From: Alphaproteobacteria bacterium
GTDB taxonomy: Bacteria > Pseudomonadota > Alphaproteobacteria > UBA6615
Direction: 5' to 3'
Assembly: GCA_011087645.1 (NCBI GenBank)
Contig: JAALLF010000001.1
Span: 143,687 to 207,686 of the forward strand
DNA: 64,000 nucleotides
The translations under genes were made by a program, and so were the position numbers. Shown here piece by piece: positions 8,859 through 63,142 of this stretch (within the stretch, counting starts at the first letter, position 1; every line of letters begins with the position of its first letter). The notes beneath the pieces were generated by a model that saw only the letters and a program-made list of their open reading frames with translations, was not told where the DNA came from and ran no database searches.

Positions 8859-9013
8859 GGGCGAAGCCGATTATATCACGCACAAATCATGAGTCGCCGC
8901 TCCCCCTCAGGCACGCAAACGTTATTCAAACAATCGCGTGATCGCGTATCGGGTGCGCGACTCCAATGCTAGTCTTTATATAGGGGAAGCTGACCCCTGG
9001 CGAATATGGGGAC

Positions 9014-10069
9014 GTGACCATGCTTCATCGACCTGATTTTCCGCGTAAGTCACTGAAAAATTGCGCCTATTCTATCTCGATTCTAGCCGCGGCAATGTTA
9101 TTTGCCAGCGCCGTTGGCGGGGCGTTCGATCCGGCGCGGGCACAATCAAACGACGGCTCAAATAATTTACTCGACGCTGTTGTCGGCATCGACACCCATA
9201 TCCCGAGCAACGCGCGCACCGCCGGAACGCTGGGCACCGAACGCCAGGGTAGCGGCGCGGTGATCTCCGACGACGGCTTGGTGCTGACCATCGGATATTT
9301 GATCCTCGAGGCCAACAGCATCGATCTGACGACCAGCGATGGACGAACGATCCCCGCTAAATTCCTCGGTTACGACCATGCTTCGGGCTTTGGTTTGGTA
9401 CGCGCGCTGAGCCCCCTGGGGGTCACGCCGTTTGAACTTGGCAGTTCCGACGACGCCGCCGCCAGATCGCAGGCGCTAATCGCCAATCGGCTCGGCAAAG
9501 AATCGGTGCAAGGCGTATTCGTGGTCGATCGCCGACAGTTTGTCGGCAGTTGGGAATATTTGCTCGACGACGCCATTTACACATCACCGCCAAACCCCAA
9601 TTTCAGCGGCGCTTCGTTGCTCGGCGCCGACGGCAGGCTGCTAGGGATCGGGTCCCTGTTCGTTGGCAACGCGGCGGTTATCCAGCAACCGGTGCCAGGC
9701 AATATGTTCGTGCCGATCGACGAATTGCGGCCGATCCTCGACGATATGGTCGCCTCGGGCCGGCGCGCCGGCAACGCGCGTCCTTGGGTGGGCATCTTTT
9801 CATCGGAGTTTCGCGGACGCGTTTTCGTTGACCGGATCGCGCCCGACGGCCCCGCCGAAGCCGCCGGCATCGAGCCCGGCGACCTCATCGTTAATGTCCG
9901 GGGCACCCCGGTCGACGATATGGCGAGTTTCCTGCGCGCGGTCTGGAAAGACGGCAAAGCGGGCGACAAGATTGATATGACCGTTCTCACCAAGGGCGGA
10001 GAATTACGCGGTGTAAGCGTGAGTTCCGACGATCGGCAGAACTGGCTGCGGCTCGACCCGAGTTTCTAG
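9014..10069 (+). CDS. Secreted S1C (DegP/HtrA-like) trypsin-fold protein with C-terminal PDZ domain; catalytic His/Asp apparently substituted
   Basis: Signal peptide, trypsin-like region aligning to DegP (GSGAVIS ... NFSGASLLGADGRLLGI retains Ser motif) and PDZ (GIEPGDLIVNVRGTPV); the LTNNHVV block reads LTIGYLI. Confidence 0.65.
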   Translation: MTMLHRPDFPRKSLKNCAYSISILAAAMLFASAVGGAFDPARAQSNDGSNNLLDAVVGIDTHIPSNARTAGTLGTERQGSGAVISDDGLVLTIGYLILEANSIDLTTSDGRTIPAKFLGYDHASGFGLVRALSPLGVTPFELGSSDDAAARSQALIANRLGKESVQGVFVVDRRQFVGSWEYLLDDAIYTSPPNPNFSGASLLGADGRLLGIGSLFVGNAAVIQQPVPGNMFVPIDELRPILDDMVASGRRAGNARPWVGIFSSEFRGRVFVDRIAPDGPAEAAGIEPGDLIVNVRGTPVDDMASFLRAVWKDGKAGDKIDMTVLTKGGELRGVSVSSDDRQNWLRLDPSF

Positions 10070-10203: not shown

Positions 10204-11283
10204 TTAAGCGACGTTGCGCGCGTCGGCGTCTTCGGCGAGATCGTTCTCCGATTGAACGCAATTGCGGCCCGCATGCTTGGCCGCATACAGCGCGGCATCA
10301 GCCCGGGCGATGAGGTCCTCGTCGGAATCCTCAGCCCGCAACTGGGCAACGCCGATCGACAGGGTCACCGATCCCAGGGTTTGGCGCGACGCTTTCCGAA
10401 CGATTTTTTGGCCAGCCACGGTAACGCGTATCTGCTCAGCGACCGCTTCCGCATCTTGCAAGCTGGCCTCCGGCAAAATGACCGAAAATTCCTCACCGCC
10501 GTAACGCGCCGCTGTATCGCCGTCTTTGGTTTTGGCCGACATGCACCCTGCTACCAAGCGGATCACTTCGTCGCCCAGTTGATGGCCGTAGGTGTCGTTA
10601 AATGCCTTGAAATGATCAATGTCGAGCATCAACAAACAAAGCGGCGCCTTCTGTTCGGTCGCCGCAGACATCCCGTCAGCCAACTCTTCGCTAAAGGCGC
10701 GGCGATTGGCCAGTCCCGTCAGGGGATCGGTTAGCGCCTCGCTGCGGATATCGGCCATGCGGATTTTGAGCTCAGCAATTTCATTGTTCGACTTTTGGAG
10801 ACTCTCGTTGGCGTTGCGATTTTGTTCCACCATGAGGCGGGTCTGTTCGACCAGGTTGGCGACAACGCTTTGCATTTGCTCAGCCGTACCGGCCGATTGC
10901 AAGGCGCCATCGACACCCTCCAAGGTTTCACCGTAGCGTTCGGTTTCCGAACCCGTTTGCTTTAAAATCTCTGTGGTCGCCGCAATCGCTTTTTCCAAAT
11001 CGCCGCCCACCGCATCGATAGCCGCCTCGCGGGTACCCTCTTTATCGCCGAGGCTCAACCGCAGAACCGCGGCATATAAATCGGCGCACTGGGTGTCGTC
11101 GAACGGCTCCTTTTTCGCCAACATGCTATCGATGTGGCGACCAAAGGACGTGTCGAAACCGCTCAGATAGGCGTACCACACCGTAAAGTTCTGTGGATTG
11201 GCGGTAATCCCGAGCTCCGCCATACGCTCGACAGCGCCGGCGGCAAATTTCGCGGCTTCTTTTTGATTTTGGGGATATTCCAC
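10204..11283 (-). CDS. Diguanylate cyclase (GGDEF domain) with N-terminal sensory/coiled-coil region
   Basis: 359 aa; GGDEF catalytic motif RYGGEEF, I-site-like RxxD, DxLTGLANRRAF start of GGDEF domain. Confidence 0.85.
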   Translation of the reverse strand: MEYPQNQKEAAKFAAGAVERMAELGITANPQNFTVWYAYLSGFDTSFGRHIDSMLAKKEPFDDTQCADLYAAVLRLSLGDKEGTREAAIDAVGGDLEKAIAATTEILKQTGSETERYGETLEGVDGALQSAGTAEQMQSVVANLVEQTRLMVEQNRNANESLQKSNNEIAELKIRMADIRSEALTDPLTGLANRRAFSEELADGMSAATEQKAPLCLLMLDIDHFKAFNDTYGHQLGDEVIRLVAGCMSAKTKDGDTAARYGGEEFSVILPEASLQDAEAVAEQIRVTVAGQKIVRKASRQTLGSVTLSIGVAQLRAEDSDEDLIARADAALYAAKHAGRNCVQSENDLAEDADARNVA

Positions 11284-11453
11284 AACGGCCTCTAATCGGG
11301 TTTCTACCCCGTAGTCTTACCCAAGACCGGTTAACGAGCTGTTAGTGAACTAGGTCGATTAGGCACCTGAACGCACCAAATAGGCGGCTTTTACTAAAAT
11401 AGGGCGCATAATGACGGCGATTTAAGCTCGAAAGACCCGTCGAGGAGGCGAGT

Positions 11454-12605
11454 ATGGCAAAACCGGGCCACGCTGAGATTGCCGGCGCCGGCTTTGGCGG
11501 ATTGGTTGCGGCAATCGGCTTAGCGGACCGCGGCTGGAGCGTACGCGTGCACGAACGTCGCCATGCCCTGCACGCCGAAGGCTATGGCATCGCCATCCAA
11601 GACAATATGACCCTCATTTTCGCCGCGTTGGGCATCCTTGATGAAACTCTCGCCGGCGGCATGGAGATCGACCGCCGCGATTCTCTAAAAGGAAACGGCG
11701 AGGTCGTTTTGAGCCTTAAGAACGGTCTCGGCCGCTACCGGATCAGTCGCCGCCACATCGTCTCGTTACTCGCAAAACGCGCCGAGCGCTCCGGCGTCGA
11801 GATCGTTACCGGATCGACCGTTGTCGACGCGACACCGGACGGCGAGATCGTGCTCGAAGGTGGGGAAACGCATCGCGCCGATCTCATCATCGCCGCCGAC
11901 GGCATCAATTCCGTCATCCGCGAGTCCCTGCACTTGACGGCACGCCAGGTCTGGCAAAAGGAAGGCGGCGTGCGCATGGTCATCCCACGCTTGGCCGAGG
12001 ACATCGCGATCGACACGCGCGACGGCACGGCGATGATCGAGGCCTGGTCCGAGAAACGCCGCATCCTCTATTGTCCGAACTCGCAGACCGAGGTCTATAT
12101 CATTCTCACTTGTATGGAACGCGACACCGCCGGCCGAGCAACGCCGGTCGATGTCGCAGCGTGGCACCGCTCGTTTCCAACGATGGGTCCTTTGCTCGAG
12201 CGTCTATCGCGCGACACGGATTGGGATGAGTGCCGCTGGGTGCGCTTTCAGACCATTCGCCTGAAACGGTGGTCGGCAGGGCGCGTCGCTATTCTCGGCG
12301 ACGCGGCGCACGCGATGCCGCCCTATCTTGGGCAAGGCGCCGGCCATGCGATGATGAATGGACTAGGGCTAGCCGTCGCCATCGACGAGGCGCCGAACCT
12401 GGCCGGCGCTCTCGCCTTGTGGGAGCGCCGCGAACGTCCGTTGACTGAACACACCCAGCGTTGGACACGGGTTTACGGGTCGACGATATTTCTGCCCGAA
12501 TGGCTGAAATCCCTGGCGATCAATGCGGAGAAACACATTCCGTGGCTGGCCAACCAGTACGGCCGGGCAGCCCAACATATTCCGACCGGCTGCGACCCCG
12601 CCTAA
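11454..12605 (+). CDS. FAD-dependent monooxygenase (UbiH/salicylate-hydroxylase-like)
   Basis: 383 aa; N-terminal FAD dinucleotide fingerprint GAGFGGLVAAIGL, DG motif ADGINS, C-terminal GDAAHAMPPYLGQGAG. Confidence 0.8.
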   Translation: MAKPGHAEIAGAGFGGLVAAIGLADRGWSVRVHERRHALHAEGYGIAIQDNMTLIFAALGILDETLAGGMEIDRRDSLKGNGEVVLSLKNGLGRYRISRRHIVSLLAKRAERSGVEIVTGSTVVDATPDGEIVLEGGETHRADLIIAADGINSVIRESLHLTARQVWQKEGGVRMVIPRLAEDIAIDTRDGTAMIEAWSEKRRILYCPNSQTEVYIILTCMERDTAGRATPVDVAAWHRSFPTMGPLLERLSRDTDWDECRWVRFQTIRLKRWSAGRVAILGDAAHAMPPYLGQGAGHAMMNGLGLAVAIDEAPNLAGALALWERRERPLTEHTQRWTRVYGSTIFLPEWLKSLAINAEKHIPWLANQYGRAAQHIPTGCDPA

Positions 12606-31214: not shown

Positions 31215-32479
31215 CAGCTTGCCTCCCCTTCAAGGCGCGCGGTCAGCCGGTCGATCTGCCGATCCCGCAGGCCGGTTTTGCGCAACCAATCGAGCGCCGG
31301 CTGGGCCCGGTCCGGCACCCCGGCGGCCAGGGCCGCCGCCAACACGAGGCGCACATCAGCTGGTTCGCGCTGCGCCTGCCAATTGGCCTCCGCCAGCGCG
31401 AGGGCCGCGGCAGGCCGCTCGAGAATCTCCAGGGTAAAGCGCGCCTCTTCGCGACGGTGGATCACGCTACCCCGCGCCCGGCTGGCCGCGAAGCGCGCTT
31501 CCAGCAGCGCTCGATGATCCTGCGCGGCGGGATCTCCAAGGCGCGCCTCGGCCAGCGTCAAACGCAACAACAGCCCGTCGATCCGCGTGTCGTCGGCAAG
31601 AAAGTCACGGGCCTCCTGGGCGCGGCCGCTATCGAGCAGCAAATCGGCATAGGCGCCGCGCAAATAGGCGTCGCGCCGGCCGAGATCCAGCCCGTCGCGG
31701 AAATGGCGTTCCGCAGCGATGACATCGCCGCGGCGCTGGGCAATCTCGCCCAAATTAGTGAAGGCCCAGAGGCGTAGGCCACGGTCGGCGTCGGTCCAAT
31801 TGGCCAGTCCGCGTTTGAGCAACCCATAACCGGTGTCGGACCGGCCGGTCAGGCTTTCGATGCGGGCCACGCAGGTGACCACAATGAGGGGGTGCACCCC
31901 GCGCGGCAACGCGCGGCAACTGCGGCGCGCGTCGGCGTAGCGCCCCTGCACCTGCAGCACGAACGCCTGGGTCAACAGAGCTTGCGCGTGTTTGGGCTTG
32001 GCGGCGAGAGTTTGAGCAAGGTCGTCCAGCGCGCCGTCGAAATCATGGCGATTTTGCTTCAAGACCGCGCGAAGAACGCGGACCTCGACCGGCGGTGCGG
32101 CCAGGTTGACCCAAGGCTTCAAGGCGGCCTCGGCATAACCGTAATAGCGCGGATCGGCCTCGGCGCGGCCCAAGCCGATATAGCGCTTGGCCAGGGTGCG
32201 GGCTAATTCGAGGTCGTTGGGAGTTTCGTTAAGTTTGGCGCGCAGATGGCGCAACTCGCGCGTCGCCGCGTCGCCGGCTTTTGGCAAACGTTCCAATATC
32301 TGATCGCCCGACGTGGGGCGAAAAGGTTCGGCGGCCGCCGCCGTCGGGTTGAGAACCGCGGCAGCGACAAGGGCGGAGATGAAAATACGGCGCACCGGTT
32401 TGATAATCGGTCGCCGCAGCGTGAAAGCACCGCGCCGAAACGGCGTTGGCGGAAAAGTATCATTTTTACAGTTTGTCAT
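31214..32479 (-). CDS. Secreted tetratricopeptide-repeat (TPR)-like protein, function unknown
   Basis: 421 aa, N-terminal signal-like hydrophobic segment, Ala/Leu/Arg-rich helical repeats typical of TPR/Sel1-like solenoids. Confidence 0.55.
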   Translation of the reverse strand: MTNCKNDTFPPTPFRRGAFTLRRPIIKPVRRIFISALVAAAVLNPTAAAAEPFRPTSGDQILERLPKAGDAATRELRHLRAKLNETPNDLELARTLAKRYIGLGRAEADPRYYGYAEAALKPWVNLAAPPVEVRVLRAVLKQNRHDFDGALDDLAQTLAAKPKHAQALLTQAFVLQVQGRYADARRSCRALPRGVHPLIVVTCVARIESLTGRSDTGYGLLKRGLANWTDADRGLRLWAFTNLGEIAQRRGDVIAAERHFRDGLDLGRRDAYLRGAYADLLLDSGRAQEARDFLADDTRIDGLLLRLTLAEARLGDPAAQDHRALLEARFAASRARGSVIHRREEARFTLEILERPAAALALAEANWQAQREPADVRLVLAAALAAGVPDRAQPALDWLRKTGLRDRQIDRLTARLEGEAS

Positions 32480-32569
32480 CGCGCTTCCCCAAAATTGACA
32501 TCGGCTCGGTGGGCAAAGGGGGGCGAGCTCGCTGGAACCCGCCCCGCATACTGTGGTTCAAGAACTGGC

Positions 32570-34045
32570 TTACTTTTTCTTGCCGTTGCCGTTGGCGTTC
32601 CCGTTGCCATTGCCCGCATCGGGACCAGTGCCGGCCTCTTCACCGTGATGACCGTGGTTGCGGCCGTTCAGCGGTGTGGCGGCGTAGGGGAAGACATCGT
32701 TGAAGGTGATGTCGTTCTCGGTCACGCCGTCGAGATCCATGGTGGCGAAACCGAGGGCGTTCAGCGCGATATCGTCGACATCGTCACCGAAGCGCCGGCC
32801 ATTTGGCCAACCACCGGGGACCGCGCCGCCGAAATCGAGCGCGCTGCCCAAATTAGTGGTGGGCAACAGGTCGCCACCGAACACGCTCAAGCGGTTAAAG
32901 CCAGCTTCACCGGCAAGCCGGGCCGGGCCGGTCGACAGGTCGACCTTGATCACATCTGGGATGTAGATGTCCCGGACCAACAGAACCGTCGGATCGAGCT
33001 GGCTGGGAAGCGGTGTCAGGCCCAGTAACGCGGCGATTTCCGGGTTCTCGGCATAGGTGGCGAACAACGCGGCATCCTGCGTCGCATCGGTGGCGTTGTA
33101 ATTGTCTTTATCGACAATCGCGACCAATGCCTCGTTGAATAACGGGTTGCCCTGGCGGCCGACTTGAACCCACTCGGAAACACCGTTGACCGTCTGTTGA
33201 CGGCTGGTCGTGGCATGCACACCGGCAAATCCGGCATTGTTGAGTTCGCTCAGCGGAATGTTCAAAACGATAGTGTGAACATTGAAACCGCCTTGGCTAT
33301 CGAACGGTTTGGTTGGGGTACCGGTGTCACCACCGAACGTGAAATCCAGATCGAAGATTGACTGAATATCAGCATAGAACCCGTCATCGCGCTGTCCGGC
33401 AAAGACCCGGTAACCGCTGGCGTTCTCGGCGATCCCAGCACTGGTGTAGATGTCGAGATCGGCTTCGTCATCGACGCCAGGCTTGGCCGTACGGTCGCCA
33501 TCATTGTCCTGGTTGTAGAACGGCGTCACCAGACCCTGGTTGTTCGGCGGCACCATGGTGTCGCCATTGTCGAACAGCACGGTCGATCCGCCGGCATCGA
33601 CGCGGGTGACTTGGTAGGTCTGCTGTAAGTTTTGGTTGGGACCGAAAGTCGCGCCGACTTCGCCGAGATAGGCTTGAAGGATCGTTTGATCGTTCTGGTA
33701 GGTCGTGTCGAACTCGAACTGGTAGCTGATGGTTTTGGTACCCGTGCCGATATCGTTGTCGAGCGAGACGTGGATCTCGTAGAGAACCCGGTCGTCGAAA
33801 CGATAATTGTTCGGCCCGATGCCCGGCTCCTCAAAGGGGGAAACGGCGAGCGCCGTGGTCAGGTACTGGGTGCTGCCGTCTTGGCTCTGACTGCGGAACG
33901 CATAGACATCGGTGGTGTTCGCCGGGTCATCGAAAGTGATGAGCGGCGCATCCATATGGCTCGACGCCAATGACGGCGCGACCGGGAGCATTCCGGCAAG
34001 AACGGCGCCGACCGCGACGGTCGAAACAAGTTTTCGGTAGTTCAT
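32570..34045 (-). CDS. Secreted DUF4331-family protein with C-terminal His/Asn-Gly-rich tail
   Basis: Start MNYRKLV (GGAGA SD 8 nt upstream) within track ORF 32570..34165; signal peptide followed by SSHMDAP motif resembling the DUF4331 N-terminal signature; tail NGRNHGHHGEEAGTGPDAGNGNGNANGNGKKK. Confidence 0.6.
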   Translation of the reverse strand: MNYRKLVSTVAVGAVLAGMLPVAPSLASSHMDAPLITFDDPANTTDVYAFRSQSQDGSTQYLTTALAVSPFEEPGIGPNNYRFDDRVLYEIHVSLDNDIGTGTKTISYQFEFDTTYQNDQTILQAYLGEVGATFGPNQNLQQTYQVTRVDAGGSTVLFDNGDTMVPPNNQGLVTPFYNQDNDGDRTAKPGVDDEADLDIYTSAGIAENASGYRVFAGQRDDGFYADIQSIFDLDFTFGGDTGTPTKPFDSQGGFNVHTIVLNIPLSELNNAGFAGVHATTSRQQTVNGVSEWVQVGRQGNPLFNEALVAIVDKDNYNATDATQDAALFATYAENPEIAALLGLTPLPSQLDPTVLLVRDIYIPDVIKVDLSTGPARLAGEAGFNRLSVFGGDLLPTTNLGSALDFGGAVPGGWPNGRRFGDDVDDIALNALGFATMDLDGVTENDITFNDVFPYAATPLNGRNHGHHGEEAGTGPDAGNGNGNANGNGKKK

Positions 34046-34358: not shown

Positions 34359-34904
34359 TTAGCGCAGTTCGCCGCGAATATAGGCCACGCCGCCTTGCGC
34401 GCTATAGATCACCGGATGACGGGTGTCGGCTTCCATGACGTGAAAATCGCCCGGCTTAAGGTGGATATCGCCGATGTCGAACGATCCCTCGAGCACGATA
34501 CATTCTTCCGTCGCGCGGTGCTTGTGCGACGGCAATTGCGCCCCCGGCGCGACCCGCAGCAGATAGGATTCGCTGCGCGCCATTTCATCGAAATAGAGGG
34601 TTTTTTTCTCAATGCCCTCCGCCAGCTGTTCCCACGCCCCCTCGCCAGCGTGAATGGTAACCGAGCTGGGCCGCTCGGTCGCCAAGGCATCCAGGGCGCC
34701 ATCTATATTGGCCCACAGACCGGCCGACGGCTCGACCGCCGCCGCGCCCTGCCCCAATCCGTTCAGGCGACGTTCCCAATCCGCGACCCGCGCTCGCAAT
34801 TTCGGATCGCGCGCCAAGGCTTCAGCAAACCGCCGACGCGCGTCGCCATCGAGAGTACCCAACACGTACTCAGCGGCCAGGCCGTCATCGTGTTCGTGCG
34901 TCAT
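34359..34904 (-). CDS. Anti-sigma factor, RskA-like N-terminal domain + ChrR-type cupin (paralog 2)
   Basis: 181 aa; N-terminus MTHEHDDGLAAEYVLGTLDGD (class II anti-sigma domain, no Zn Cys) and C-terminal cupin; ~65% identical to 35070..35627. Confidence 0.7.
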   Translation of the reverse strand: MTHEHDDGLAAEYVLGTLDGDARRRFAEALARDPKLRARVADWERRLNGLGQGAAAVEPSAGLWANIDGALDALATERPSSVTIHAGEGAWEQLAEGIEKKTLYFDEMARSESYLLRVAPGAQLPSHKHRATEECIVLEGSFDIGDIHLKPGDFHVMEADTRHPVIYSAQGGVAYIRGELR

Positions 34905-56801: not shown

Positions 56802-57419
56802 ATGGCCGCGCTTGATTTAGCCTCGATTGACTCCGCTTCGGCGAGCCACGACCCGTTCGATTACGTCATCGTACCCGGCGTTATTTCCAGCGATGTCTTA
56901 CCGGCGATTCACCAAGACTTTCCCAAAATCGACAAGCCGGGCAGTTACCCGGTGTCGCAGCTCGACTATGGACCGCGCTTCGACGCACTGCTCGATGAAT
57001 TGCGGTCTGCCCCATTCGCCGAACGGGTCGGCGCCAAATTAGGCATCGAGCTGACCGGCCGGCCAACGATGATCACCGTGCGCGGCCAGTGCCGCGCCAC
57101 CGATGGTAAGATACATACCGATTCTGCTGGCAAGCTGGTCACCGTCCTGCTGTACCTCAACCCGTCCTGGGAGGCGCCGGGCGGCCAGTTGCGCCTGCTG
57201 CACAACGACCATGACCTGGAAAATTATGCCGCCGAGGTGCCCCCGCAAGAGGGCACTATGGTCGCCTTCACCTGCCGCCCCGACGCTTGGCACGGTCACC
57301 ACAGTTTCGAGGGCCAGCGCCGTACGATCCAGCTAAACTGGGTGCGCAGCCGGGGTTATAAAATGCGCGAACAGGTACGCCATGGCCTATCGGCCAGTTT
57401 GAAGAAAATAACCGGCTAA
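56802..57419 (+). CDS. 2OG-Fe(II) oxygenase superfamily protein (prolyl-hydroxylase-like)
   Basis: 205 aa; facial triad HTD ... H (IHTDSAGK, WHGHHSF) and Arg for 2OG binding (RRTIQLNW). Confidence 0.65.
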   Translation: MAALDLASIDSASASHDPFDYVIVPGVISSDVLPAIHQDFPKIDKPGSYPVSQLDYGPRFDALLDELRSAPFAERVGAKLGIELTGRPTMITVRGQCRATDGKIHTDSAGKLVTVLLYLNPSWEAPGGQLRLLHNDHDLENYAAEVPPQEGTMVAFTCRPDAWHGHHSFEGQRRTIQLNWVRSRGYKMREQVRHGLSASLKKITG

Positions 57420-57502: not shown

Positions 57503-59431
57503 GTGGGTCATCCCGCCGCCGCGCCGAAAGTGCGCGACCTGCTCACACGTTTAGCCGGGCGCGGTTCGGTGGCGGTCTACGATCCCACGGGCTTTGCGAC
57601 AGCGTTCGCCGAGATCTATCCGCTGGCCGACCTCGATATTGCCCACGTCTATGTGCAGGACCTGGCGGCGCTGGGCCAACAGATCCTCGGCCGCGCGACC
57701 CAGCCGGTGACCGATCTGGCCGCCGCCGAAGTCCCGTCGCTGCTGGTAGTCGCCTTCGACGCCGACAAAATCGTGCGCGACATCGCCCACCTGGTGCCGC
57801 CAGGCACCGAAATTGCGACCCTCGACGAGGTTCGCCTCGACGAGAACCGGCTGACCAACCCGCGGCGCTACCTCGACCCGCTCAATTTCGCCACAAACTT
57901 CGCCTGGTTCCGCGATGCGCCGGATAGCCGCGGCGGGCATCTGCACACAAGGGTGGCGACGGCCAATTATTGGCACCGCTATGGCGCCCACGACGTCACT
58001 CTATGGCTCACCTTGCTCGACGAGACCGGGGCGCCGGTCGCCGAATGGGAGCAGGCGCTGCCCGACTCTCCGGCCGGGGTTACCATCGACAGCGTCGCGA
58101 TCCGCCAGCGCTTCGGCCTCGGCGATTTCACCGGCCAGTTGCTGATCCACGCCGTTGGCGTCGCCGGCCACGACATCGTCAAATATGCCCTCGACACGTT
58201 CGGCGACGATGCGAGGGACCTTTCCTGCACCCACGACGCCAACGCTTGGCCGGCGGATTTTTATGCCGGCCTGCCGGCGCCCCAAGCCGATGAACGGGTG
58301 GTGCTGTGGATCCAGAACAGCCATCCCTGCCCGATCCCCGCCGACACCGTCGGGCTCAATGTTATGGGCGACGATAAAGGCGCGGTCTTTCTCAACGCCG
58401 AAATTCCGCCCTTCGCGACCCATGCGCTGAATGTCGCGCAACTGCTGCCCGAGACCCAATGGCCGCAACAACTCGAAGTGCGCGCCGGCAAGCATTTCGT
58501 GCGGCCGCGCTACGAGATCGAGAGGACGACGGATGACGGCGGCAGCCAACGGCGCATGGCCCACGCCAATGTGGAGCGCACCGATCTGGAGCCGGACCCG
58601 CAGATCGCCGAAATCGGCAACCTCATGGGCAAGGGCTTCCTGCTACCCGCGCCGGTGCTGCCGCCCGAGCGTTACCGCTCGATCCTACTACCGACGCCGA
58701 TGGCGACGACCCAACAGACCCTGCCGGTTGCGGCCCTGGTTTACGACGCGCAAGGCCGCGAGGTTGCTCGCCACGATTTCGGTGAACTGGTCCGCACCGA
58801 CAGCGTGGCCATCGACGCGGAGCAAATCGGCGGCGGCGCGCTCAACGGCGACGCCGGACATATGGAGCTAGTCTACGACTTCCCCGCCGCAACGCGCGGC
58901 GTCGATGGCTGGCTGCACGCGCTGTTCCGCTATGAAGACCGGGTGACCGGCCACGCCGCGGAATCGAGCTTCGGCGCCCATATTTTCAATACCGTGCTGA
59001 CCTGGAAGGGCGAGCCGCAGTCCTATACCGGCAACCCGCCGGGCCTGTCGACGCGCCTGTTCCTGCGCACCGCGCCCAGCATGGCGGTCCCCGGCGCGGC
59101 GACCAAGGGCGACGGCGACGACACATTCTGCCATTTGATCTACCCGGCCTCGACGCCGTGGCACGGCGCCTCGCAGACCAACCTCACCCTGCACGCCGGC
59201 GACGGTAGCGAAGTGGCGACCCGCACCGTCAATATCGCGTGTGGCGGCTCGCTCTATTGGCGCTTGTCCGACATGTTCGACAAAGCCGAGCGCCAACGCG
59301 CCGCCGAACCGGGCCCGGTGGGCGGCGGCTATGTGCTGATCCGCGATACCACCTGCCGCCTATTCGGCTATCATGGCCTGATCGCCGCCGACGGCGCGGC
59401 GTTCAGCTTGGACCATATGTTCGGATTTTAG
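57503..59431 (+). CDS. Large hypothetical protein (642 aa), no recognizable family
   Basis: Single uninterrupted ORF with codon usage like neighbours; no signal peptide, no known motifs detected by eye. Confidence 0.45.
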   Translation: MGHPAAAPKVRDLLTRLAGRGSVAVYDPTGFATAFAEIYPLADLDIAHVYVQDLAALGQQILGRATQPVTDLAAAEVPSLLVVAFDADKIVRDIAHLVPPGTEIATLDEVRLDENRLTNPRRYLDPLNFATNFAWFRDAPDSRGGHLHTRVATANYWHRYGAHDVTLWLTLLDETGAPVAEWEQALPDSPAGVTIDSVAIRQRFGLGDFTGQLLIHAVGVAGHDIVKYALDTFGDDARDLSCTHDANAWPADFYAGLPAPQADERVVLWIQNSHPCPIPADTVGLNVMGDDKGAVFLNAEIPPFATHALNVAQLLPETQWPQQLEVRAGKHFVRPRYEIERTTDDGGSQRRMAHANVERTDLEPDPQIAEIGNLMGKGFLLPAPVLPPERYRSILLPTPMATTQQTLPVAALVYDAQGREVARHDFGELVRTDSVAIDAEQIGGGALNGDAGHMELVYDFPAATRGVDGWLHALFRYEDRVTGHAAESSFGAHIFNTVLTWKGEPQSYTGNPPGLSTRLFLRTAPSMAVPGAATKGDGDDTFCHLIYPASTPWHGASQTNLTLHAGDGSEVATRTVNIACGGSLYWRLSDMFDKAERQRAAEPGPVGGGYVLIRDTTCRLFGYHGLIAADGAAFSLDHMFGF

Positions 59432-59449: not shown

Positions 59450-60181
59450 ATGGGCGAAAAAGAATCGACGATCGCCACCGCCGACGGCGAGATGTACGCG
59501 TTTTCCGCCTGGCCCGACGATGACGGGCCGCACCCGGTTGTGGTGATGTATATGGACGCGCCGGGCATCCGCGAGGAGCTGCGTAACTTCGCCCGCCGCA
59601 TCGCCGCCCAGGGTTATTACGCGCTGCTGCCTGATCTGTACTACCGGCTGGGCGACATCCGCTTTAACCTAAAAAATCGCAACGAGAAGATGGGCGAGAT
59701 GATCTTCGCCGCCTGGCATAGTCTGAGCAATGCCGGGGTGGCCAGCGACACCGCGGCGATGCTCGATTTTCTAGGGTCTGAAACCGCCGCGTCCGACGGT
59801 CCCATGGGCTGCGTCGGCTATTGCATGAGCGGCGCCTACATAGTCACCGTGGCCGGCACCTACCCCGATCGCTTTGCCGCCAACGCCTCGCTCTACGGGG
59901 TGTGGATCGTCACCGAGCACGACGATTCGCCCCATCTGCTGGCCGGCAAAATTCAGGGCGAGATGTATCTCGCCTTCGCCGAGCACGACCATTGGGTGCC
60001 CGACAATGTCATTCCAGATCTCACCGCCGCCTTCGACGCCAACGGCATTACTCATGAGATCGAGACCTATCCCGGCACCGAGCACGGCTACGCCTTCCCC
60101 GAGCGCGACATGTATAACGAGGCCGCCGCCGAGGCGACCTGGGAGAAGATGTTCGCGCTCTATGCCCGCACGCTGGGGTAG
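59450..60181 (+). CDS. Dienelactone hydrolase family protein
   Basis: 243 aa; alpha/beta-hydrolase DLH motifs (nucleophile elbow GYCMSG, His in GTEHGYA). Confidence 0.8.
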   Translation: MGEKESTIATADGEMYAFSAWPDDDGPHPVVVMYMDAPGIREELRNFARRIAAQGYYALLPDLYYRLGDIRFNLKNRNEKMGEMIFAAWHSLSNAGVASDTAAMLDFLGSETAASDGPMGCVGYCMSGAYIVTVAGTYPDRFAANASLYGVWIVTEHDDSPHLLAGKIQGEMYLAFAEHDHWVPDNVIPDLTAAFDANGITHEIETYPGTEHGYAFPERDMYNEAAAEATWEKMFALYARTLG

Positions 60182-60277
60182 AGGCTCGCCTCCCTCTTAA
60201 ACGGCCTTTAAACGCTGACGTTTACAACGTACCTTTAATTACGCTATAAATGTTCTTGTTTTGTTCTGGATTGAAAT

Positions 60278-61048
60278 ATGGCCGACAAATCATCTATCGA
60301 ATGGACAAACGCGACGTGGAACCCGGTTACGGGCTGCACAAAGATTAGCGCGGGCTGCGATAATTGTTACGCAGAGCGCTTTGCTGAGAGATTTCGCGGG
60401 GTACCGGATCATCCGTTCGAAACCGGGTTCGACCTTACACTTCGACCGGATCGGCTTAAGCAGCCGCTGAGCTGGAAGCAACATCGGATGATCTTTGTGA
60501 ATTCGATGAGCGACCTGTTCCATAAGGGCGTGAGCAACGATTTTATCGATCAAGTATTCGATACGATGGAAGAGGCGCACCATCACACGTTTCAGATTTT
60601 GACCAAGCGCAGTTCAAGAATGCGCAATTACGTCGACGCACGGTACGGCGACGACACCGCGCCGCGACATATCTGGCTGGGGACGTCGGTTGAGGACGGA
60701 ACCAAGAAATCGCGAATTCGGCACATTCAAAGAATGGCTGCGACGGTTCGGTTTCTCTCCATCGAACCTCTGATCGGTCCGGTCGGAGAGCTTGATCTCG
60801 ACGGCATCCATTGGGTCATTGTTGGCGGCGAAAGCGGTCCACGCGCACGTCCTATTGATCCTGAATGGGTCCGCGATATTCGCGATCAATGCCAGGAAAC
60901 CAATGTGGCCTTCTTCTTCAAGCAGTGGGGCGGATTTCGGCCGAAGTCGGGAGGACGGATGCTGGATGGCCAGGAATGGAGCGAGTTTCCGACACTGATT
61001 GATTCGCCTTCATCTCAGTCTGTTTTCATAACGAACCCAGGTGAATGA
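60278..61048 (+). CDS. Phage Gp37/Gp68 (DUF5131) family three-Cys-motif protein
   Basis: 256 aa; N-terminal IEWTNATWNPVTGCTKISAGCDNCYAE (C-x6-C-x2-C), HHH triplet, C-terminal WVIVGGESGP...FFFKQWGG typical of this family; lower GC than flanks. Confidence 0.7.
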   Translation: MADKSSIEWTNATWNPVTGCTKISAGCDNCYAERFAERFRGVPDHPFETGFDLTLRPDRLKQPLSWKQHRMIFVNSMSDLFHKGVSNDFIDQVFDTMEEAHHHTFQILTKRSSRMRNYVDARYGDDTAPRHIWLGTSVEDGTKKSRIRHIQRMAATVRFLSIEPLIGPVGELDLDGIHWVIVGGESGPRARPIDPEWVRDIRDQCQETNVAFFFKQWGGFRPKSGGRMLDGQEWSEFPTLIDSPSSQSVFITNPGE

Positions 61049-61965
61049 CGAGTTATAAGCAAGACGGAACTGTCGGGCCATGGGCCCACGAAAAGCTGGA
61101 TTGCTTGGGCAAATACTTGGCCGCGTATACGACTGTCCTCCGCAAAAGATCTTGGTGTGAAGGTTATTTCTACATTGATGCATTTGCCGGTGCCGGAAAG
61201 GCCCCATTAAGAAAAGAACAGGCTGGCACACCTGCCGAGCGGCAGGTTCAACAAGCTATATTCGAAGACTTGGTGCAAAGTGCCGACGATAACGACAAGT
61301 CAACTTATGTCGAAGGGTCGCCATACGTGGCGCTCGACATTCCACACCCATTCACTCGCTACTATTTCATAGATTTGAATTCCGAACTTACTTCGAAATT
61401 GAACTCAATAGCCGATGAATATGGAGACACACGCGACATTCGCATACTTCCAGCTGACGCCAATCATGCGATCACCGAAAATATTCTAGGAGATACCAGC
61501 ATAAACTGGCGCAAAAACCGCGCGGTAATATTTCTCGACCCATTCGGCATGCAAGTGAAGTGGGACACCATAGCAAAAATCGCGACCACTAACGCGATTG
61601 AGATCATCGTCAATCTTCCCGTGGGAATGGCTATTCAGCGATTGTTGGCTCGTTCGGGCGAGATAAGCGAGGCTCGTCGTAATACTCTTAATGAATATTT
61701 CGGAACGGACGAATGGGAAAATATCGTCTATGAACAATCTACCGACTTATTTGGCGACCGCGTCGACAAGGTGGAAAACTCAGGACATAGGCTCGCGCGT
61801 TGGTACCAAGGTCGCCTGAAGGAGGCATTCGGATACGCCTCACCGGCGAGACTAATTAGAAACTCTCAACGCGGTCATCTGTATTACTTGTTATGGGCTG
61901 GTCCAAATAAGACAGGTGCTAAGATCGCCACACACGTATTGAGCCAAGGCGAAGCGATCGATTAG
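61045..61965 (+). CDS. Three-Cys-motif partner protein (TcmP-like), methyltransferase-fold-like
   Basis: 306 aa; start overlaps upstream stop (ATGA); motifs FYIDAFAGAGK (Gly-rich motif I-like) and VIFLDPFG (motif IV (D/N)PP(F/Y)-like). Confidence 0.6.
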   Translation: MTSYKQDGTVGPWAHEKLDCLGKYLAAYTTVLRKRSWCEGYFYIDAFAGAGKAPLRKEQAGTPAERQVQQAIFEDLVQSADDNDKSTYVEGSPYVALDIPHPFTRYYFIDLNSELTSKLNSIADEYGDTRDIRILPADANHAITENILGDTSINWRKNRAVIFLDPFGMQVKWDTIAKIATTNAIEIIVNLPVGMAIQRLLARSGEISEARRNTLNEYFGTDEWENIVYEQSTDLFGDRVDKVENSGHRLARWYQGRLKEAFGYASPARLIRNSQRGHLYYLLWAGPNKTGAKIATHVLSQGEAID

Positions 61966-62032
61966 AACCCTTGCGTCTCGCCCGGTCGGCTGAAACAATT
62001 CTAAAAATAATAGTTCAGGGGGAGTTACCATC

Positions 62033-63142
62033 ATGGATACCCGCGCCGCGGTCGCGCATGAAGCCGGCCAACCGCTTGCCATCGAAACCGTACAGCTCGA
62101 CGGGCCGAAAGCCGGCGAAGTGCTGGTCGAGATCAAGGCCACCGGCATCTGTCATACCGACGAATTCACGCTCTCGGGCGCCGATCCGGAGGGGCTGTTC
62201 CCGTCCGTCCTCGGCCATGAGGGCGCCGGCGTGGTGGTCGATGTGGGGCCCGGGGTCAACAGCCTCAAGCCCGGCGACCATGTCATTCCGCTCTACACGC
62301 CGGAATGCCGCACTTGCGACTATTGTTTAAGCGGCAAGACCAATCTCTGCCAGTCGATCCGCGAGACCCAGGGCCAGGGCGTCATGCCCGACGGCTCATC
62401 GCGTTTCTCGCTCGGCGGCGATCCGCTGTTCCACTATATGGGCACCTCGACCTTCTCCAACTTCACCGTCTTGCCCGAGATCGCGGCGGCAAAAATTCGC
62501 GAGGACGCGCCGTTCGAGAAGGTCTGCTACATCGGCTGCGGCGTCACCACCGGCCTCGGCGCGGTGATCAACACGGCCAAGGTCCAGCCCGGCGAGAATG
62601 TGGTGGTGTTCGGGCTCGGCGGCATCGGCCTCAACGTCATTCAGGGCGCACGGCTAGTCGGCGCCGATATGATCGTCGGCGTTGATTTAAACCCGGAGCG
62701 CCGCGCCATCGCCGAAAAATTCGGCATGACCCATTTCGTCAATCCAAAAGAGGTCGACGGCGACCTGGTGGCCTACTTGGTCGATTTGACCAAGGGCGGC
62801 GCCGACCATTCGTTCGAGTGCATCGGCAACGTGGAAGTGATGCGCCAAGCATTGGAATGCTGTCACAAGGGATGGGGCAAATCGACCATCATCGGCGTTG
62901 CCCCGGCGGGTGCCGAGATCGCCACCCGGCCGTTCCAATTGGTCACCGGACGGGTCTGGCAAGGCACCGCGTTCGGCGGCGCAAAAGGCCGCACCGACGT
63001 ACCGAAAATCGTCGATTGGTATATGGACGGCAAGATCAATATCGACGATCTGATCACCCATGTGATGCCGTTGGACGAGATCAACAACGCCTTCGACTTG
63101 ATGCACAAGGGCGAATCGATCCGCAGCGTGGTGACGTTCTAA
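62033..63142 (+). CDS. frmA: S-(hydroxymethyl)glutathione dehydrogenase / class III alcohol dehydrogenase
   Basis: 369 aa; Zn-ADH motifs ([18 protein letters not shown], structural Zn CxxCxxC...C: [15 protein letters not shown]) and NAD fold GLGGIGLNV; near-colinear with FrmA/AdhC. Confidence 0.92.

What the first reader, a model, noticed from the sequence alone, without database searches (positions are those of the whole stretch)
60182..62032. Low-GC two-gene islet: Gp37/Gp68 (DUF5131) protein translationally coupled to a TcmP-like partner
The 1.85-kb segment between a dienelactone hydrolase gene and frmA is visibly more AT-rich than its ~65% GC flanks. It carries exactly two genes whose start and stop overlap (ATGA at 61045-61048), flanked by AT-rich spacers, with no integrase or IS in view. 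Neither family has a characterised function. A compact, horizontally acquired, strictly co-transcribed pair is the typical signature of an accessory module such as a defence or nucleic-acid-modification system, but the sequence alone does not show which. This is the best candidate in the window for an undescribed system.
Basis: partly seen in the sequence, partly recalled or inferred. Interest (0 to 1): 0.8.

Follow-up and report, generated by a model that had tools for sequence, protein, structure and literature searches.

The report
SOS-controlled mobile radical-SAM/methyltransferase-like gene pair
A 1.8-kb, low-GC, two-gene cassette (a radical-SAM-type iron-sulfur protein plus an RlmJ-like methyltransferase-fold partner) was inserted between two housekeeping genes; it is already catalogued as an untested defence candidate, but it carries a host-matched LexA (DNA-damage) operator, which points to a damage-induced enzyme acting on nucleic acids.

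Summary
Two overlapping genes (DUF5131, 60278-61048; TcmP, 61045-61965) form the lowest-GC segment of the window (50.4% vs 61.1±2.6%). Close relatives have DLH directly followed by frmA, so the pair is an insertion.

The pair is obligate. It was adjacent in 75 of 77 assessable loci from more than 10 phyla and fused into one protein in 21. No third gene is conserved.

It is not undescribed: PADLOC lists it as candidate PDC-M41 and NCBIfam names the partner TcmP. I found no experimental test.

New here:
- TcmP has an RlmJ-type SAM-methyltransferase fold with motif IV changed from DPPY to DPFG.
- DUF5131 is a CX6CX2C radical-SAM relative.
- The cassette carries a LexA operator matched to its host. 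GTTC-N7-GTTC (≤1 mismatch) occurs in 26 of 27 alphaproteobacterial loci, against 5 of 335 control genes. Two Gammaproteobacteria have CTGT-N8-ACAG, and Anaeromyxobacter has a Myxococcus-type box.

Best reading: an SOS-induced, mobile, two-subunit enzyme acting on nucleic-acid bases, more likely in damage processing than in classical defence. Phage defence remains a serious rival. The function is inferred, not shown.

The parts
60182..60277 (+). Cassette leader, the left end of the insertion. It starts right after the DLH stop codon and carries the promoter-like elements and the operator.
   Evidence: It does not align with the empty-site spacers of relatives. It is homologous to the leaders of L104 and L124.
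60221..60250 (+). Promoter-like site: TTTACA (60221-60226), 18 nt, TATAAA (60245-60250).
   Evidence: Read from the sequence. Both hexamers are identical in L124 and near-identical in L104. The consensus scan did not report it because the last base of the -10 is A. This is inferred, not shown.
60252..60266 (+). Alphaproteobacterial LexA (SOS) box GTTCTTGTTTTGTTC, directly downstream of the -10 and 12 nt upstream of the start codon.
   Evidence: Exact GTTC-N7-GTTC. The same element with at most 1 mismatch occurs at the same position in 26 of 27 alphaproteobacterial loci, against 5 of 335 control genes. The motif is defined in PMC4951493 and PMC9578287. Within this window alone the motif count is at chance level.
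60278..61048 (+). DUF5131 (Gp37/Gp68; PADLOC PDC-M41B) gene: a radical-SAM-superfamily-type Fe-S protein of 256 aa.
60335..60367 (+). Codons for the three-Cys motif C20-X6-C27-X2-C30, the presumed [4Fe-4S] ligands.
   Evidence: The three cysteines are invariant in 36 homologs.
61045..61048 (+). ATGA start/stop overlap, indicating translational coupling.
   Evidence: The same 4-bp overlap is seen in at least 13 other loci.
61045..61965 (+). TcmP (three-Cys-motif partner; PADLOC PDC-M41A) gene: an RlmJ-like class-I SAM-methyltransferase-fold protein of 306 aa.
61177..61197 (+). TcmP motif I, D45-A-F-A-G-A-G51 (SAM-binding loop).
   Evidence: D45, A48, G49 and G51 are invariant in 76 homologs. 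The motif aligns to RlmJ 'DTHAGAG'.
61537..61548 (+). TcmP motif IV, D165-P-F-G168, the variant of the amino-methyltransferase DPPY motif.
   Evidence: D165, P166 and G168 are invariant and F167 is conserved in at least 90%. The motif aligns to RlmJ 'IDPPY'.
61966..62032 (+). Retained ancestral DLH-frmA spacer. It is not part of the insert.
   Evidence: It aligns with the whole spacer of the empty sites L084, L085, L086 and L096.

Best explanation
The segment is a small mobile cassette that inserted immediately after the stop codon of the dienelactone hydrolase gene. It brought its own promoter and a LexA operator.

Proposed mechanism:
1. Without DNA damage, LexA sits on GTTC-N7-GTTC (60252-60266) over the transcription start and keeps the operon off.
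2. After DNA damage, RecA-stimulated LexA cleavage derepresses the operon.
3. The two proteins are made in equal amounts through the ATGA overlap and form one enzyme. In many genomes they are a single fused polypeptide.
4. TcmP has the RlmJ-type SAM-methyltransferase fold. It binds SAM and docks on nucleic acid with a base flipped into its altered (DPFG) pocket.
5. DUF5131 holds a [4Fe-4S] cluster on C20/C27/C30. It cleaves SAM to a 5'-deoxyadenosyl radical and does radical chemistry on that base. The outcome is direct reversal or processing of a DNA lesion, or a damage-triggered base modification, in the manner of spore photoproduct lyase and the SOS-regulated SplB-like (PA0069/Rv2578c) radical SAM enzymes.

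Shown: the insertion, the obligate pairing and fusion, the folds and motifs, and the conserved host-matched LexA boxes.

Inferred: LexA binding and induction, complex formation, Fe-S and SAM chemistry, the substrate, and the physiological role.
For: Insertion:
- About 28 of 36 relatives have DLH followed directly by frmA.
- The junctions were mapped.
- GC and GC3 are outliers.

Obligate pair and complex:
- 80 loci gave 47 DUF5131>TcmP, 21 fused, 5 in reversed order, 2 divergent and 5 missing. Three of the missing cases are cut by a contig end.
- No third gene is conserved.
- The pair is also present in temperate Gordonia phages.

SOS control:
- Exact GTTC-N7-GTTC lies at -23 to -35 in 15 loci, against a background of 0.0096 per 230 nt.
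- 26 of 27 alphaproteobacterial loci have at most 1 mismatch, against 5 of 335 other genes and 1.4% of random 45-mers.
- The tetranucleotides are invariant while the spacers and the rest of the leader diverge.
- Gammaproteobacterial loci L046 and L049 carry CTGTATATTTGGACAG and CTGTATATTCGAACAG at the same position, against a background of 0.0013.
- Anaeromyxobacter L036 matches 16 of 17 positions of the M. xanthus box (PMC9705874).
- Chloroflexi loci carry AAAC-N4-GTTC next to TATAAT.
- The motif definitions come from PMC4951493 and PMC9578287.

Nucleic-acid and DNA-damage link:
- TcmP resembles RlmJ.
- Where DUF5131 is absent (L076), TcmP pairs with a canonical CxxxCxxC radical SAM protein nearest to the PA0069 and Rv2578c families. 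Both of those are LexA-regulated (PMC3381160; bioRxiv 10.1101/2022.03.14.484287; PMC4951493; PMC3323433).
Against: - There is no experimental datum for this family.
- The window's own box is not significant on its own: 2 motifs in 64 kb against 2.2 expected. Its weight is entirely comparative, and the loci share ancestry, so they are not independent.
- Only two exact gamma-type boxes were found. The fused Gammaproteobacteria and Latescibacterota loci show no recognised LexA box, and the LexA motifs of Planctomycetes and Latescibacterota are not documented in the papers I could read.
- RlmJ, the closest structural relative of TcmP, acts on rRNA, not DNA.
- SOS control is also common for mobile elements, toxins and some defence functions, so it does not by itself imply repair.
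- PADLOC lists the pair as a defence candidate, and some loci do sit beside Abi, Hna or RM genes.
Confidence: 0.45

Rival explanations
1. It is an anti-phage or anti-plasmid defence system (PADLOC candidate PDC-M41). The radical-SAM/MTase-like enzyme modifies or damages invader nucleic acid, or makes a toxic nucleotide as viperins do. LexA control serves as an infection or prophage-induction alarm.
For: - Both proteins match PDC-M41A/B.
- The sister cassette PDC-M30 occupies the same chromosomal site in another lineage, a cassette swap typical of defence hotspots.
- The pair lies beside two Abi genes on a conjugative Leisingera plasmid.
- TcmP lies next to the validated Hna gene on pSymA.
- Type I RM, PglX-like, ShosA, PsyrA and AriA genes are neighbours in some loci.
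- In temperate Gordonia phages the pair sits between the integrase and the immunity repressor.
- Viperin is among the top fold matches.
- COG4422 is enriched together with defence COGs in sponge symbionts (PMC5649159).
Against: - No published test of PDC-M41 or PDC-M30 was found.
- Most immediate neighbours are housekeeping genes. In this window the context is purely housekeeping.
- DUF5131 is unusually conserved across phyla (73% mean column identity). That is not what arms-race proteins usually show.
- There is no nuclease, sensor or effector domain.
- A LexA operator re-fitted to each host clade is the signature of SOS-regulon genes such as splB and imuA-imuB-dnaE2 (PMC3323433, PMC4951493).
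Confidence: 0.3
2. It is an RNA-modifying enzyme (rRNA or tRNA). It would be analogous to RlmJ plus the radical-SAM methylases RlmN/Cfr, or to the Trm5/TYW1 steps of wybutosine synthesis, and would change translation under stress or give resistance to a ribosome-targeting compound.
For: - The best structural and only sequence-level relative of TcmP is the 23S rRNA m6A methyltransferase RlmJ.
- RlmN appears among the DUF5131 fold matches.
- Mobile radical-SAM rRNA methylases such as Cfr are a known precedent (general knowledge).
Against: - LexA control has no obvious logic for an rRNA or tRNA modification.
- The nearest radical-SAM groups, and TcmP's alternative partner, are DNA-repair-linked (PMC9477430).
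- Motif IV is altered from DPPY to DPFG, so RlmJ-type N6-adenine methylation is not assured.
- The sporadic, mobile distribution argues against a housekeeping RNA modification.
Confidence: 0.12
3. It is a selfish addiction (toxin-antitoxin or RM-like) module. One partner damages nucleic acid and the other protects, which would explain a two-gene cassette that persists without mobility genes.
For: - It is a compact two-gene mobile cassette with translational coupling.
- Several SOS-regulated TA modules are known (cited in PMC9578287).
- TA genes lie beside the pair in L076.
Against: - Stable in-frame fusions of the two partners occur in 21 of 80 loci.
- Decayed copies lose both genes rather than only one (L052, L065, L077).
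- Both proteins have enzyme-like conservation.
- TcmP can pair with an alternative radical SAM partner.
Confidence: 0.05

Closest known systems
PADLOC candidate systems PDC-M41 and PDC-M30
   Same: Both window proteins match the two PDC-M41 components (A: E 1e-71; B: E 9e-106) and are adjacent and co-oriented. PDC-M30 uses the same DUF5131 type with a longer TcmP paralog. It sits at the same DLH|frmA site in L104.
   Different: These are computational candidates. I found no report of phage protection or mechanism. I found no mention of LexA operators for these families in the searchable literature.
[quoted passage not shown]
   Same: TcmP scores 182 bits (cutoff 53). It sits next to a three-Cys-motif protein, as the family name implies. 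DUF5131 is significantly similar to TIGR04471 (E 8.5e-24). In L076, TcmP pairs with a canonical radical SAM protein.
   Different: DUF5131 scores far below the TIGR04471 cutoff (84 vs 355 bits). It has CX6CX2C rather than CX3CX2C. These family names describe co-occurrence only, not a function.
SOS-regulated SplB-like radical SAM 'DNA repair photolyase' genes (COG1533; PA0069 and Rv2578c families)
   Same: These are radical-SAM-type enzymes under LexA control, with operators matched to each clade's LexA motif (PMC3323433, PMC4951493, PMC3381160). TcmP's alternative partner in L076 is nearest to these families. According to PMC9477430, DUF5131 shares RadicalSAM.org megacluster 5 with spore photoproduct lyase.
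   Different: The window protein does not hit these models. SplB-like genes are single genes without a TcmP partner, as far as I saw. Their own substrate is also not established in the papers I read.
Spore photoproduct lyase (SPL)
   Different: There is no sequence-level match. SPL has the canonical CX3CX2C motif, has no methyltransferase-like partner, and is linked to spore germination rather than to SOS control.
RlmJ (23S rRNA m6A2030 methyltransferase) / YhiR family
   Different: Sequence identity is only 14-16%, with E about 0.3. Motif IV is DPFG instead of DPPY. TcmP has an obligate Fe-S partner, is mobile and is LexA-controlled. RlmJ is a stand-alone housekeeping rRNA enzyme.
imuA-imuB-dnaE2 mutagenesis cassette
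   Same: It is a horizontally dispersed multi-gene cassette that is LexA-regulated in many phyla, with operators fitted to the host (as cited in PMC4951493).
   Different: The proteins and chemistry are unrelated (translesion synthesis). It is an analogy for dispersal and regulation only.

Membership tests
Pfam PF07505 / DUF5131 (phage Gp37/Gp68) | Full-length match to the family HMM above the gathering score | tested here: met
   336.4 bits against a cutoff of 28.9, covering residues 4-238 of 256 and profile positions 1-243 of 243.
Pfam PF07505 / DUF5131 (phage Gp37/Gp68) | N-terminal three-cysteine motif (CX6CX2C) | tested here: met
   C20, C27 and C30 are invariant in 36 homologs.
NCBIfam TIGR04474 TcmP | HMM score above the curated cutoff | tested here: met
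   182.1 bits against a cutoff of 53.
NCBIfam TIGR04474 TcmP | Encoded next to a three-Cys-motif (radical-SAM-type) protein | tested here: met
   In the window there is a 4-bp overlap with DUF5131. The two genes were adjacent in 75 of 77 assessable loci. L076 pairs TcmP with a canonical radical SAM protein instead.
PADLOC PDC-M41 | Both component HMMs (A and B) matched by adjacent genes | tested here: met
   PDC-M41A E 1.4e-71 and PDC-M41B E 9.3e-106.
PADLOC PDC-M41 | Confers protection against phage or plasmid | not testable with these tools
   No experimental report was found in 8 million papers and preprints.
Radical SAM superfamily | Canonical CX3CX2C cluster motif and a PF04055 match | tested here: not met
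   The motif is CX6CX2C, and there is no PF04055 hit at E<=0.01.
Radical SAM superfamily | Homology to bona fide radical SAM families, or superfamily assignment by curators | tested here: met
   TIGR04471 E 8.5e-24 over residues 15-216. DUF5131 is listed as a radical SAM subgroup in SFLD/RadicalSAM.org (PMC9477430).
Radical SAM superfamily | Partial TIM-barrel radical SAM fold | tested here: inconclusive
Radical SAM superfamily | [4Fe-4S] cluster and reductive SAM cleavage | not testable with these tools
   This needs anaerobic purification, EPR or UV-vis spectroscopy, and a 5'-deoxyadenosine assay.
RlmJ family N6-adenine methyltransferases | Class-I MTase fold of the RlmJ type with the SAM-binding motif I | tested here: met
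RlmJ family N6-adenine methyltransferases | Catalytic DPPY motif IV | tested here: not met
   TcmP has an invariant D-P-(F)-G at the aligned position. I therefore do not file it as an RlmJ family member, only as a structural relative.
LexA (SOS) regulon | LexA-binding motif of the host clade in the promoter region | tested here: met
   GTTCTTGTTTTGTTC at 60252-60266, between the -10 and the start codon. The motif is defined in PMC4951493 and PMC9578287.
LexA (SOS) regulon | The site is conserved in orthologs and switches with the clade-specific LexA motif | tested here: met
   26 of 27 alphaproteobacterial loci have at most 1 mismatch, against 5 of 335 controls. CTGT-N8-ACAG is present in 2 Gammaproteobacteria. 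L036 matches 16 of 17 positions of the M. xanthus box (PMC9705874). Other phyla are unresolved.
LexA (SOS) regulon | LexA binding in vitro or in vivo, and RecA/LexA-dependent induction | not testable with these tools
   This needs EMSA or ChIP and expression measurements after DNA damage.
Restriction-modification or toxin-antitoxin modules | A nuclease or toxin component paired with a protective component | tested here: not met
   No nuclease or toxin domain was found in Pfam, NCBIfam or PADLOC. The partners occur as stable fusions.

The most novel reading that the evidence does not exclude
DUF5131-TcmP is a previously unrecognised, horizontally mobile member of the bacterial SOS response. It would be a two-subunit (or fused) radical-SAM enzyme guided by an RlmJ-like base-flipping partner. 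It would repair or chemically rewrite a DNA base after damage without needing oxygen or light. This would assign a function to a large DUF present in many phyla and in at least 180 phage genomes, and would re-file PADLOC candidates PDC-M41 and PDC-M30 as damage-response modules.
Probability: 0.3. Interest if true: 0.85.

Novelty: new member of a known kind. Interest (0 to 1): 0.62.

Why it matters
DUF5131 is a large, very highly conserved family. It has no known function, and TcmP spans about 1,450 clusters at 50% identity.

This work gives the family a concrete and cheaply testable handle. The genes form an obligate, sometimes fused, pair. The partner has an RlmJ-type base-flipping methyltransferase fold. 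The operon carries a LexA operator re-fitted to each host clade.

If LexA control is confirmed, two consequences follow:
- The SOS regulon gains a new mobile module alongside imuA-imuB-dnaE2 and splB.
- Defence-prediction pipelines that report PDC-M41 or PDC-M30 would need to treat those calls with care.

If the pair turns out to be a defence system after all, it would be an example of immunity wired directly to LexA.

Tried and rejected
- **Insertion signatures.** I searched for terminal direct or inverted repeats and target-site duplications at the junctions. Nothing beyond chance-level 9-mers turned up, so the insertion mechanism stays unknown.
- **Third conserved gene.** All-vs-all clustering of neighbours in 80 loci found none. 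The largest cluster, apparently a generic SDR, is in 8 loci.
- **Defence-island enrichment.** A Pfam and PADLOC scan of the 150 nearest neighbours in 42 non-redundant loci showed a heterogeneous mix, with only a minority of defence or mobilome genes. I had no proper genome-wide baseline.
- **Solved structures for DUF5131.** A sequence search of the PDB gave no hit.
- **Profile-profile comparison.** DUF5131 against the canonical radical SAM partner of L076 was not significant (Prob 1.7%). Only the Cys motif aligned, so I do not count this as evidence.
- **PHROGs for TcmP.** No family matched. NCBIfam nevertheless shows that Gordonia phage 'methyltransferase' and hypothetical genes are TcmP.
- **Window-only significance of GTTC-N7-GTTC.** It is not significant: 2 found against 2.2 expected. 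The other copy, at 34761, lies inside an ORF and is probably chance.
- **Phage-style regulators.** Homologs of the metalloprotease and DUF3263 genes of the Gordonia phages were not found in the bacterial loci.
- **Literature.** I searched for PDC-M41, PDC-M30, DUF5131, TcmP, Gp37Gp68, COG4422 and IPR011101 and found no functional study. The Caulobacter SOS regulon paper (PMC2238201) is not held.
- **Other operators.** I considered whether the GT(A/T)CA plus CTATAC(T) element in Planctomycetes, Latescibacterota and Acidobacteria leaders is a LexA operator. I left this open because I could not verify the LexA motifs of those phyla.
Full report
**1.

The segment between the dienelactone hydrolase gene (59450-60181) and the frmA-like alcohol dehydrogenase gene (62033-63142) contains exactly two long ORFs on the + strand. 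They are 60278-61048 (256 aa) and 61045-61965 (306 aa), and they overlap by ATGA at 61045-61048.

The first is a full-length PF07505/DUF5131 protein (336 bits). The second is TIGR04474 TcmP (182 bits, cutoff 53).

The segment 60182-61968 has 50.4% GC, against 61.1±2.6% for all windows of equal size. It is the global minimum of the 64 kb. GC3 is 0.60 and 0.51, against 0.734±0.067 for the other ORFs.

There is no integrase, transposase or terminal repeat.

**2. It is an insertion, and the site is a recurrent one**

I fetched 36 metagenomic loci that encode close relatives of the flanking hydrolase. In about 28 of them the hydrolase is followed directly by frmA, with a 70-110 bp spacer. This includes the closest one (L084: DLH 90% and frmA 93% identical).

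Alignment of the junctions shows that the entire ancestral spacer survives to the right of the insert (window 61966-62032). The foreign DNA begins immediately after the hydrolase stop codon. The insert is therefore about 1.79 kb: a 96-bp leader plus the two genes.

A sister genome (L124) has the same cassette with the same junctions:

| Feature | Identity, window vs L124 |
|---|---|
| DLH (flank) | 90% |
| frmA (flank) | 93.5% |
| DUF5131 | 87.5% |
| TcmP | 83% |

The cassette GC in L124 is still 0.53 and 0.48. This was one insertion that has since been inherited vertically. It is not a very recent import.

The same spacer holds other cargo in other lineages. L104 carries a DUF5131 gene (80% identical) with a longer, different TcmP paralog, and its right junction is different. 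L107 carries an unrelated TIM-barrel gene.

**3. The pair is obligate and sometimes a single protein**

A scan of one genome per species with a TcmP profile returned 80 loci. They come from Alpha- and Gammaproteobacteria, Planctomycetota, Latescibacterota, Acidobacteriota, Nitrospirota, Chloroflexota, Myxococcota and others.

| Arrangement | Loci |
|---|---|
| DUF5131 then TcmP, same strand | 47 (at least 13 with the same 4-bp overlap) |
| Fused into one ORF of about 556-566 aa, 14-32-residue linker | 21 |
| TcmP then DUF5131, same strand | 5 |
| Divergent | 2 |
| One partner not found | 5 (3 of them cut by a contig end) |

No third gene is conserved. In L076, which lacks DUF5131, TcmP is followed by a canonical CxxxCxxC radical SAM protein.

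The pair also occurs on conjugative plasmids and in temperate Gordonia phages. In those phages the annotated 'methyltransferase' or hypothetical neighbour of DUF5131 is TcmP (109 and 175 bits).

DUF5131 is far more conserved (73% mean column identity) than TcmP (53%). The same DUF5131 type also serves two TcmP paralog classes, PDC-M41A and PDC-M30A. That suggests a constant catalytic subunit and a variable partner.

TcmP relatives span about 1,450 clusters at 50% identity with E≤1e-10.

**4. What the proteins are**

The only PDB sequences touched by the TcmP profile are RlmJ chains. The hits are weak (E about 0.3), but the alignment pairs motif I (DAFAGAG with DTHAGAG) and motif IV (LDPFG with IDPPY).

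D45, A48, G49, G51, D165, P166 and G168 are invariant in 76 homologs. TcmP is therefore an RlmJ-type SAM-binding fold with an altered catalytic motif. I treat it as a structural relative, not a family member.

*DUF5131.* It has an invariant CX6CX2C motif. It is significantly similar to the radical SAM family TIGR04471 (E 8.5e-24, below that family's cutoff). SFLD and RadicalSAM.org list it as a radical SAM subgroup, in megacluster 5 together with spore photoproduct lyase (PMC9477430).

**5. It is already catalogued, but untested**

PADLOC-DB v2 contains both proteins as the two components of candidate system PDC-M41 (A: E 1e-71; B: E 9e-106). The DUF5131 protein also matches PDC-M30B.

Full-text searches found no functional study. 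The terms were PDC-M41, PDC-M30, DUF5131, TcmP, Gp37Gp68, COG4422 and IPR011101. Papers that validate PDC candidates tested other systems.

**6. The new finding: a host-matched LexA operator**

The cassette leader in the window has this layout:
- a promoter-like TTTACA-N18-TATAAA at 60221-60250;
- directly after it, GTTCTTGTTTTGTTC at 60252-60266;
- the start codon 12 nt further downstream.

In the window alone the motif count is at chance level: 2 found, 2.2 expected. The comparative evidence, however, is strong.

*Alphaproteobacteria.*
- An exact box lies 23-35 nt upstream of the DUF5131 start, in the same orientation, in 15 loci. The background is 0.0096 per 230 nt.
- In 27 alphaproteobacterial loci the best match at -50 to -5 has 0 mismatches in 14, one in 12 and two in 1.
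- Among 335 other genes of the same loci, 0 have an exact box and 5 have one mismatch. Among random 45-mers, 1.4% have at most 1 mismatch.
- The two tetranucleotides are invariant while the 7-nt spacer and the rest of the leader diverge.

*Other clades.* The operator type changes with the host.
- The separate-gene Gammaproteobacteria L046 and L049 carry CTGTATATTTGGACAG and CTGTATATTCGAACAG at -34 and -32. This is the CTGT-N8-ACAG type, with a background of 0.0013.
- L016 and L074 have a left half-site.
- Anaeromyxobacter L036 has CTATACTCGCGTTCAGC, which matches 16 of 17 positions of the M. xanthus SOS box CTRHAMRYBYGTTCAGS. The LexA-regulated recN box differs at two positions (PMC9705874).
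- Two Chloroflexi loci have AAAC-N4-GTTC beside a TATAAT.
- Planctomycetes, Latescibacterota and Acidobacteria leaders share a GT(A/T)CA plus CTATAC(T) element that I could not assign.

The SOS literature uses exactly this argument, sites present in clades with divergent LexA motifs, to accept splB-type radical SAM genes as SOS genes (PMC3323433, PMC4951493).

**7. Link to DNA damage**

TcmP's alternative partner in L076 is nearest to the PA0069 and Rv2578c radical SAM families, although below their cutoffs.
- Rv2578c has a LexA ChIP-seq peak in M. tuberculosis (PMC3381160).
- PA0069 is one of the 15 SOS genes of P. aeruginosa (bioRxiv 10.1101/2022.03.14.484287).

TcmP therefore associates with two kinds of radical-SAM-type proteins. 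One is a relative of known LexA-regulated 'DNA repair photolyase-like' enzymes. The other, DUF5131, carries its own LexA boxes.

**8. Interpretation**

The best-supported reading is an SOS-induced, horizontally mobile, two-subunit enzyme. An RlmJ-like SAM-binding, base-flipping subunit would present a nucleic-acid base to a radical-SAM-type subunit, for lesion reversal or processing or for a damage-triggered modification.

- Shown: the insertion, the pairing and fusion, the folds and motifs, and the conserved host-matched operators.
- Inferred: LexA binding, complex formation, Fe-S and SAM chemistry, the substrate and the role.

The main rival is anti-phage defence (PDC-M41) with LexA as the alarm. 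In its favour are the cassette swapping at a hotspot and defence neighbours in some loci:
- Abi genes on the Leisingera plasmid;
- Hna on pSymA;
- RM, PglX-like, ShosA, PsyrA and AriA genes;
- the position in the lysogeny module of the Gordonia phages.

Against it are the mostly housekeeping neighbourhoods, the extreme conservation of DUF5131, the lack of any sensor or effector domain, and the absence of any test.

An RNA-modification role (RlmJ, RlmN/Cfr or TYW analogies) and an addiction module are less likely.

**9. Verdict**

The 'undescribed system' claim is too strong, because the locus is a typical member of a catalogued but uncharacterised pair.

Its value lies in what the comparison revealed. 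The fusions show that the two proteins work as one. The fold of the partner points to a base-directed activity. A clade-matched LexA operator places the module in the DNA-damage response and makes its function directly testable.

Noticed in passing
window 60182/61966 junctions; L104:6727-8833; L107:664-1704; L124:6908-8756: The DLH|frmA spacer is a recurrent insertion point. The window and L124 carry a PDC-M41-type cassette. L104 carries a PDC-M30-type cassette with a different right junction. L107 carries an unrelated PF01261 (AP_endonuc_2 / xylose-isomerase-like TIM barrel) gene. Why this spacer is targeted is unknown.
   Followed up: partly
L069:8385-10324; L052, L065, L077: Decayed copies of the pair. 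TcmP in L069 is split by an insert of about 1.1 kb. L052, L065 and L077 have frameshifted or fragmented DUF5131 and/or TcmP. L077 (Solirubrobacterales) still carries an alpha-type GTTC-N7-GTTC box, which suggests a recent transfer from an alphaproteobacterium.
   Followed up: no
L031:16323-17105; L013:11047-12375: L031 has a second, separate DUF5131 gene 5.4 kb downstream of the fused gene. L013 has a weak TcmP-like ORF (E 3.5e-6) immediately after the fused gene.
   Followed up: no
L121 (Gordonia phage BaxterFox NC_031226.1, record 32200-32928, + strand): The record does not annotate the DUF5131 ORF (53% identical to the window protein). It annotates small opposite-strand ORFs 40 and 41 over it, which is a likely misannotation. 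Gene 42 ('hypothetical') is a TcmP (175 bits).
   Followed up: partly
L120:1848-6284; L121:1918-7157: In the temperate Gordonia phages Fairfaxidum and BaxterFox, the DUF5131/TcmP pair lies between the integrase and the immunity repressor. A metalloprotease gene and a DUF3263 gene precede it. No homologs of those two genes were found next to the 80 bacterial copies.
   Followed up: partly
window 57503-59431 (+), with 56802-57419: This is a 642-aa protein with no Pfam match. It is conserved next to a 2OG-Fe(II) oxygenase and the dienelactone hydrolase in all relatives examined (57-84% identity), so it forms an uncharacterised conserved gene cluster.
   Followed up: no
L005, L008, L021, L037, L038, L044, L058 (Planctomycetes); L014, L022, L027, L028, L055, L063 (Latescibacterota); L015, L075 (Acidobacteria): 20-60 nt upstream of the first gene of the pair: These leaders share the elements GT(A/T)CA-N3-GTACA or ATAC-N4-GTTCAG, followed by CTATAC(T). 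They could be the LexA operators of these phyla or just a conserved promoter. This is unresolved.
   Followed up: partly
window 34761-34775: This is the only other exact GTTC-N7-GTTC in the window. It lies inside an ORF (34359-34904, - strand), and the count is consistent with chance.
   Followed up: yes
L122 (S. meliloti pSymA): TcmP 9001-9861 (+), DUF5131 11207-11962 (-): On pSymA the two genes are convergent and about 1.3 kb apart, not adjacent. No LexA box is obvious upstream of DUF5131. TcmP (SMa2243) is listed next to the validated defence gene hna (SMa2245) among the genes upregulated in a nolR+ strain (PMC12445080).
   Followed up: partly
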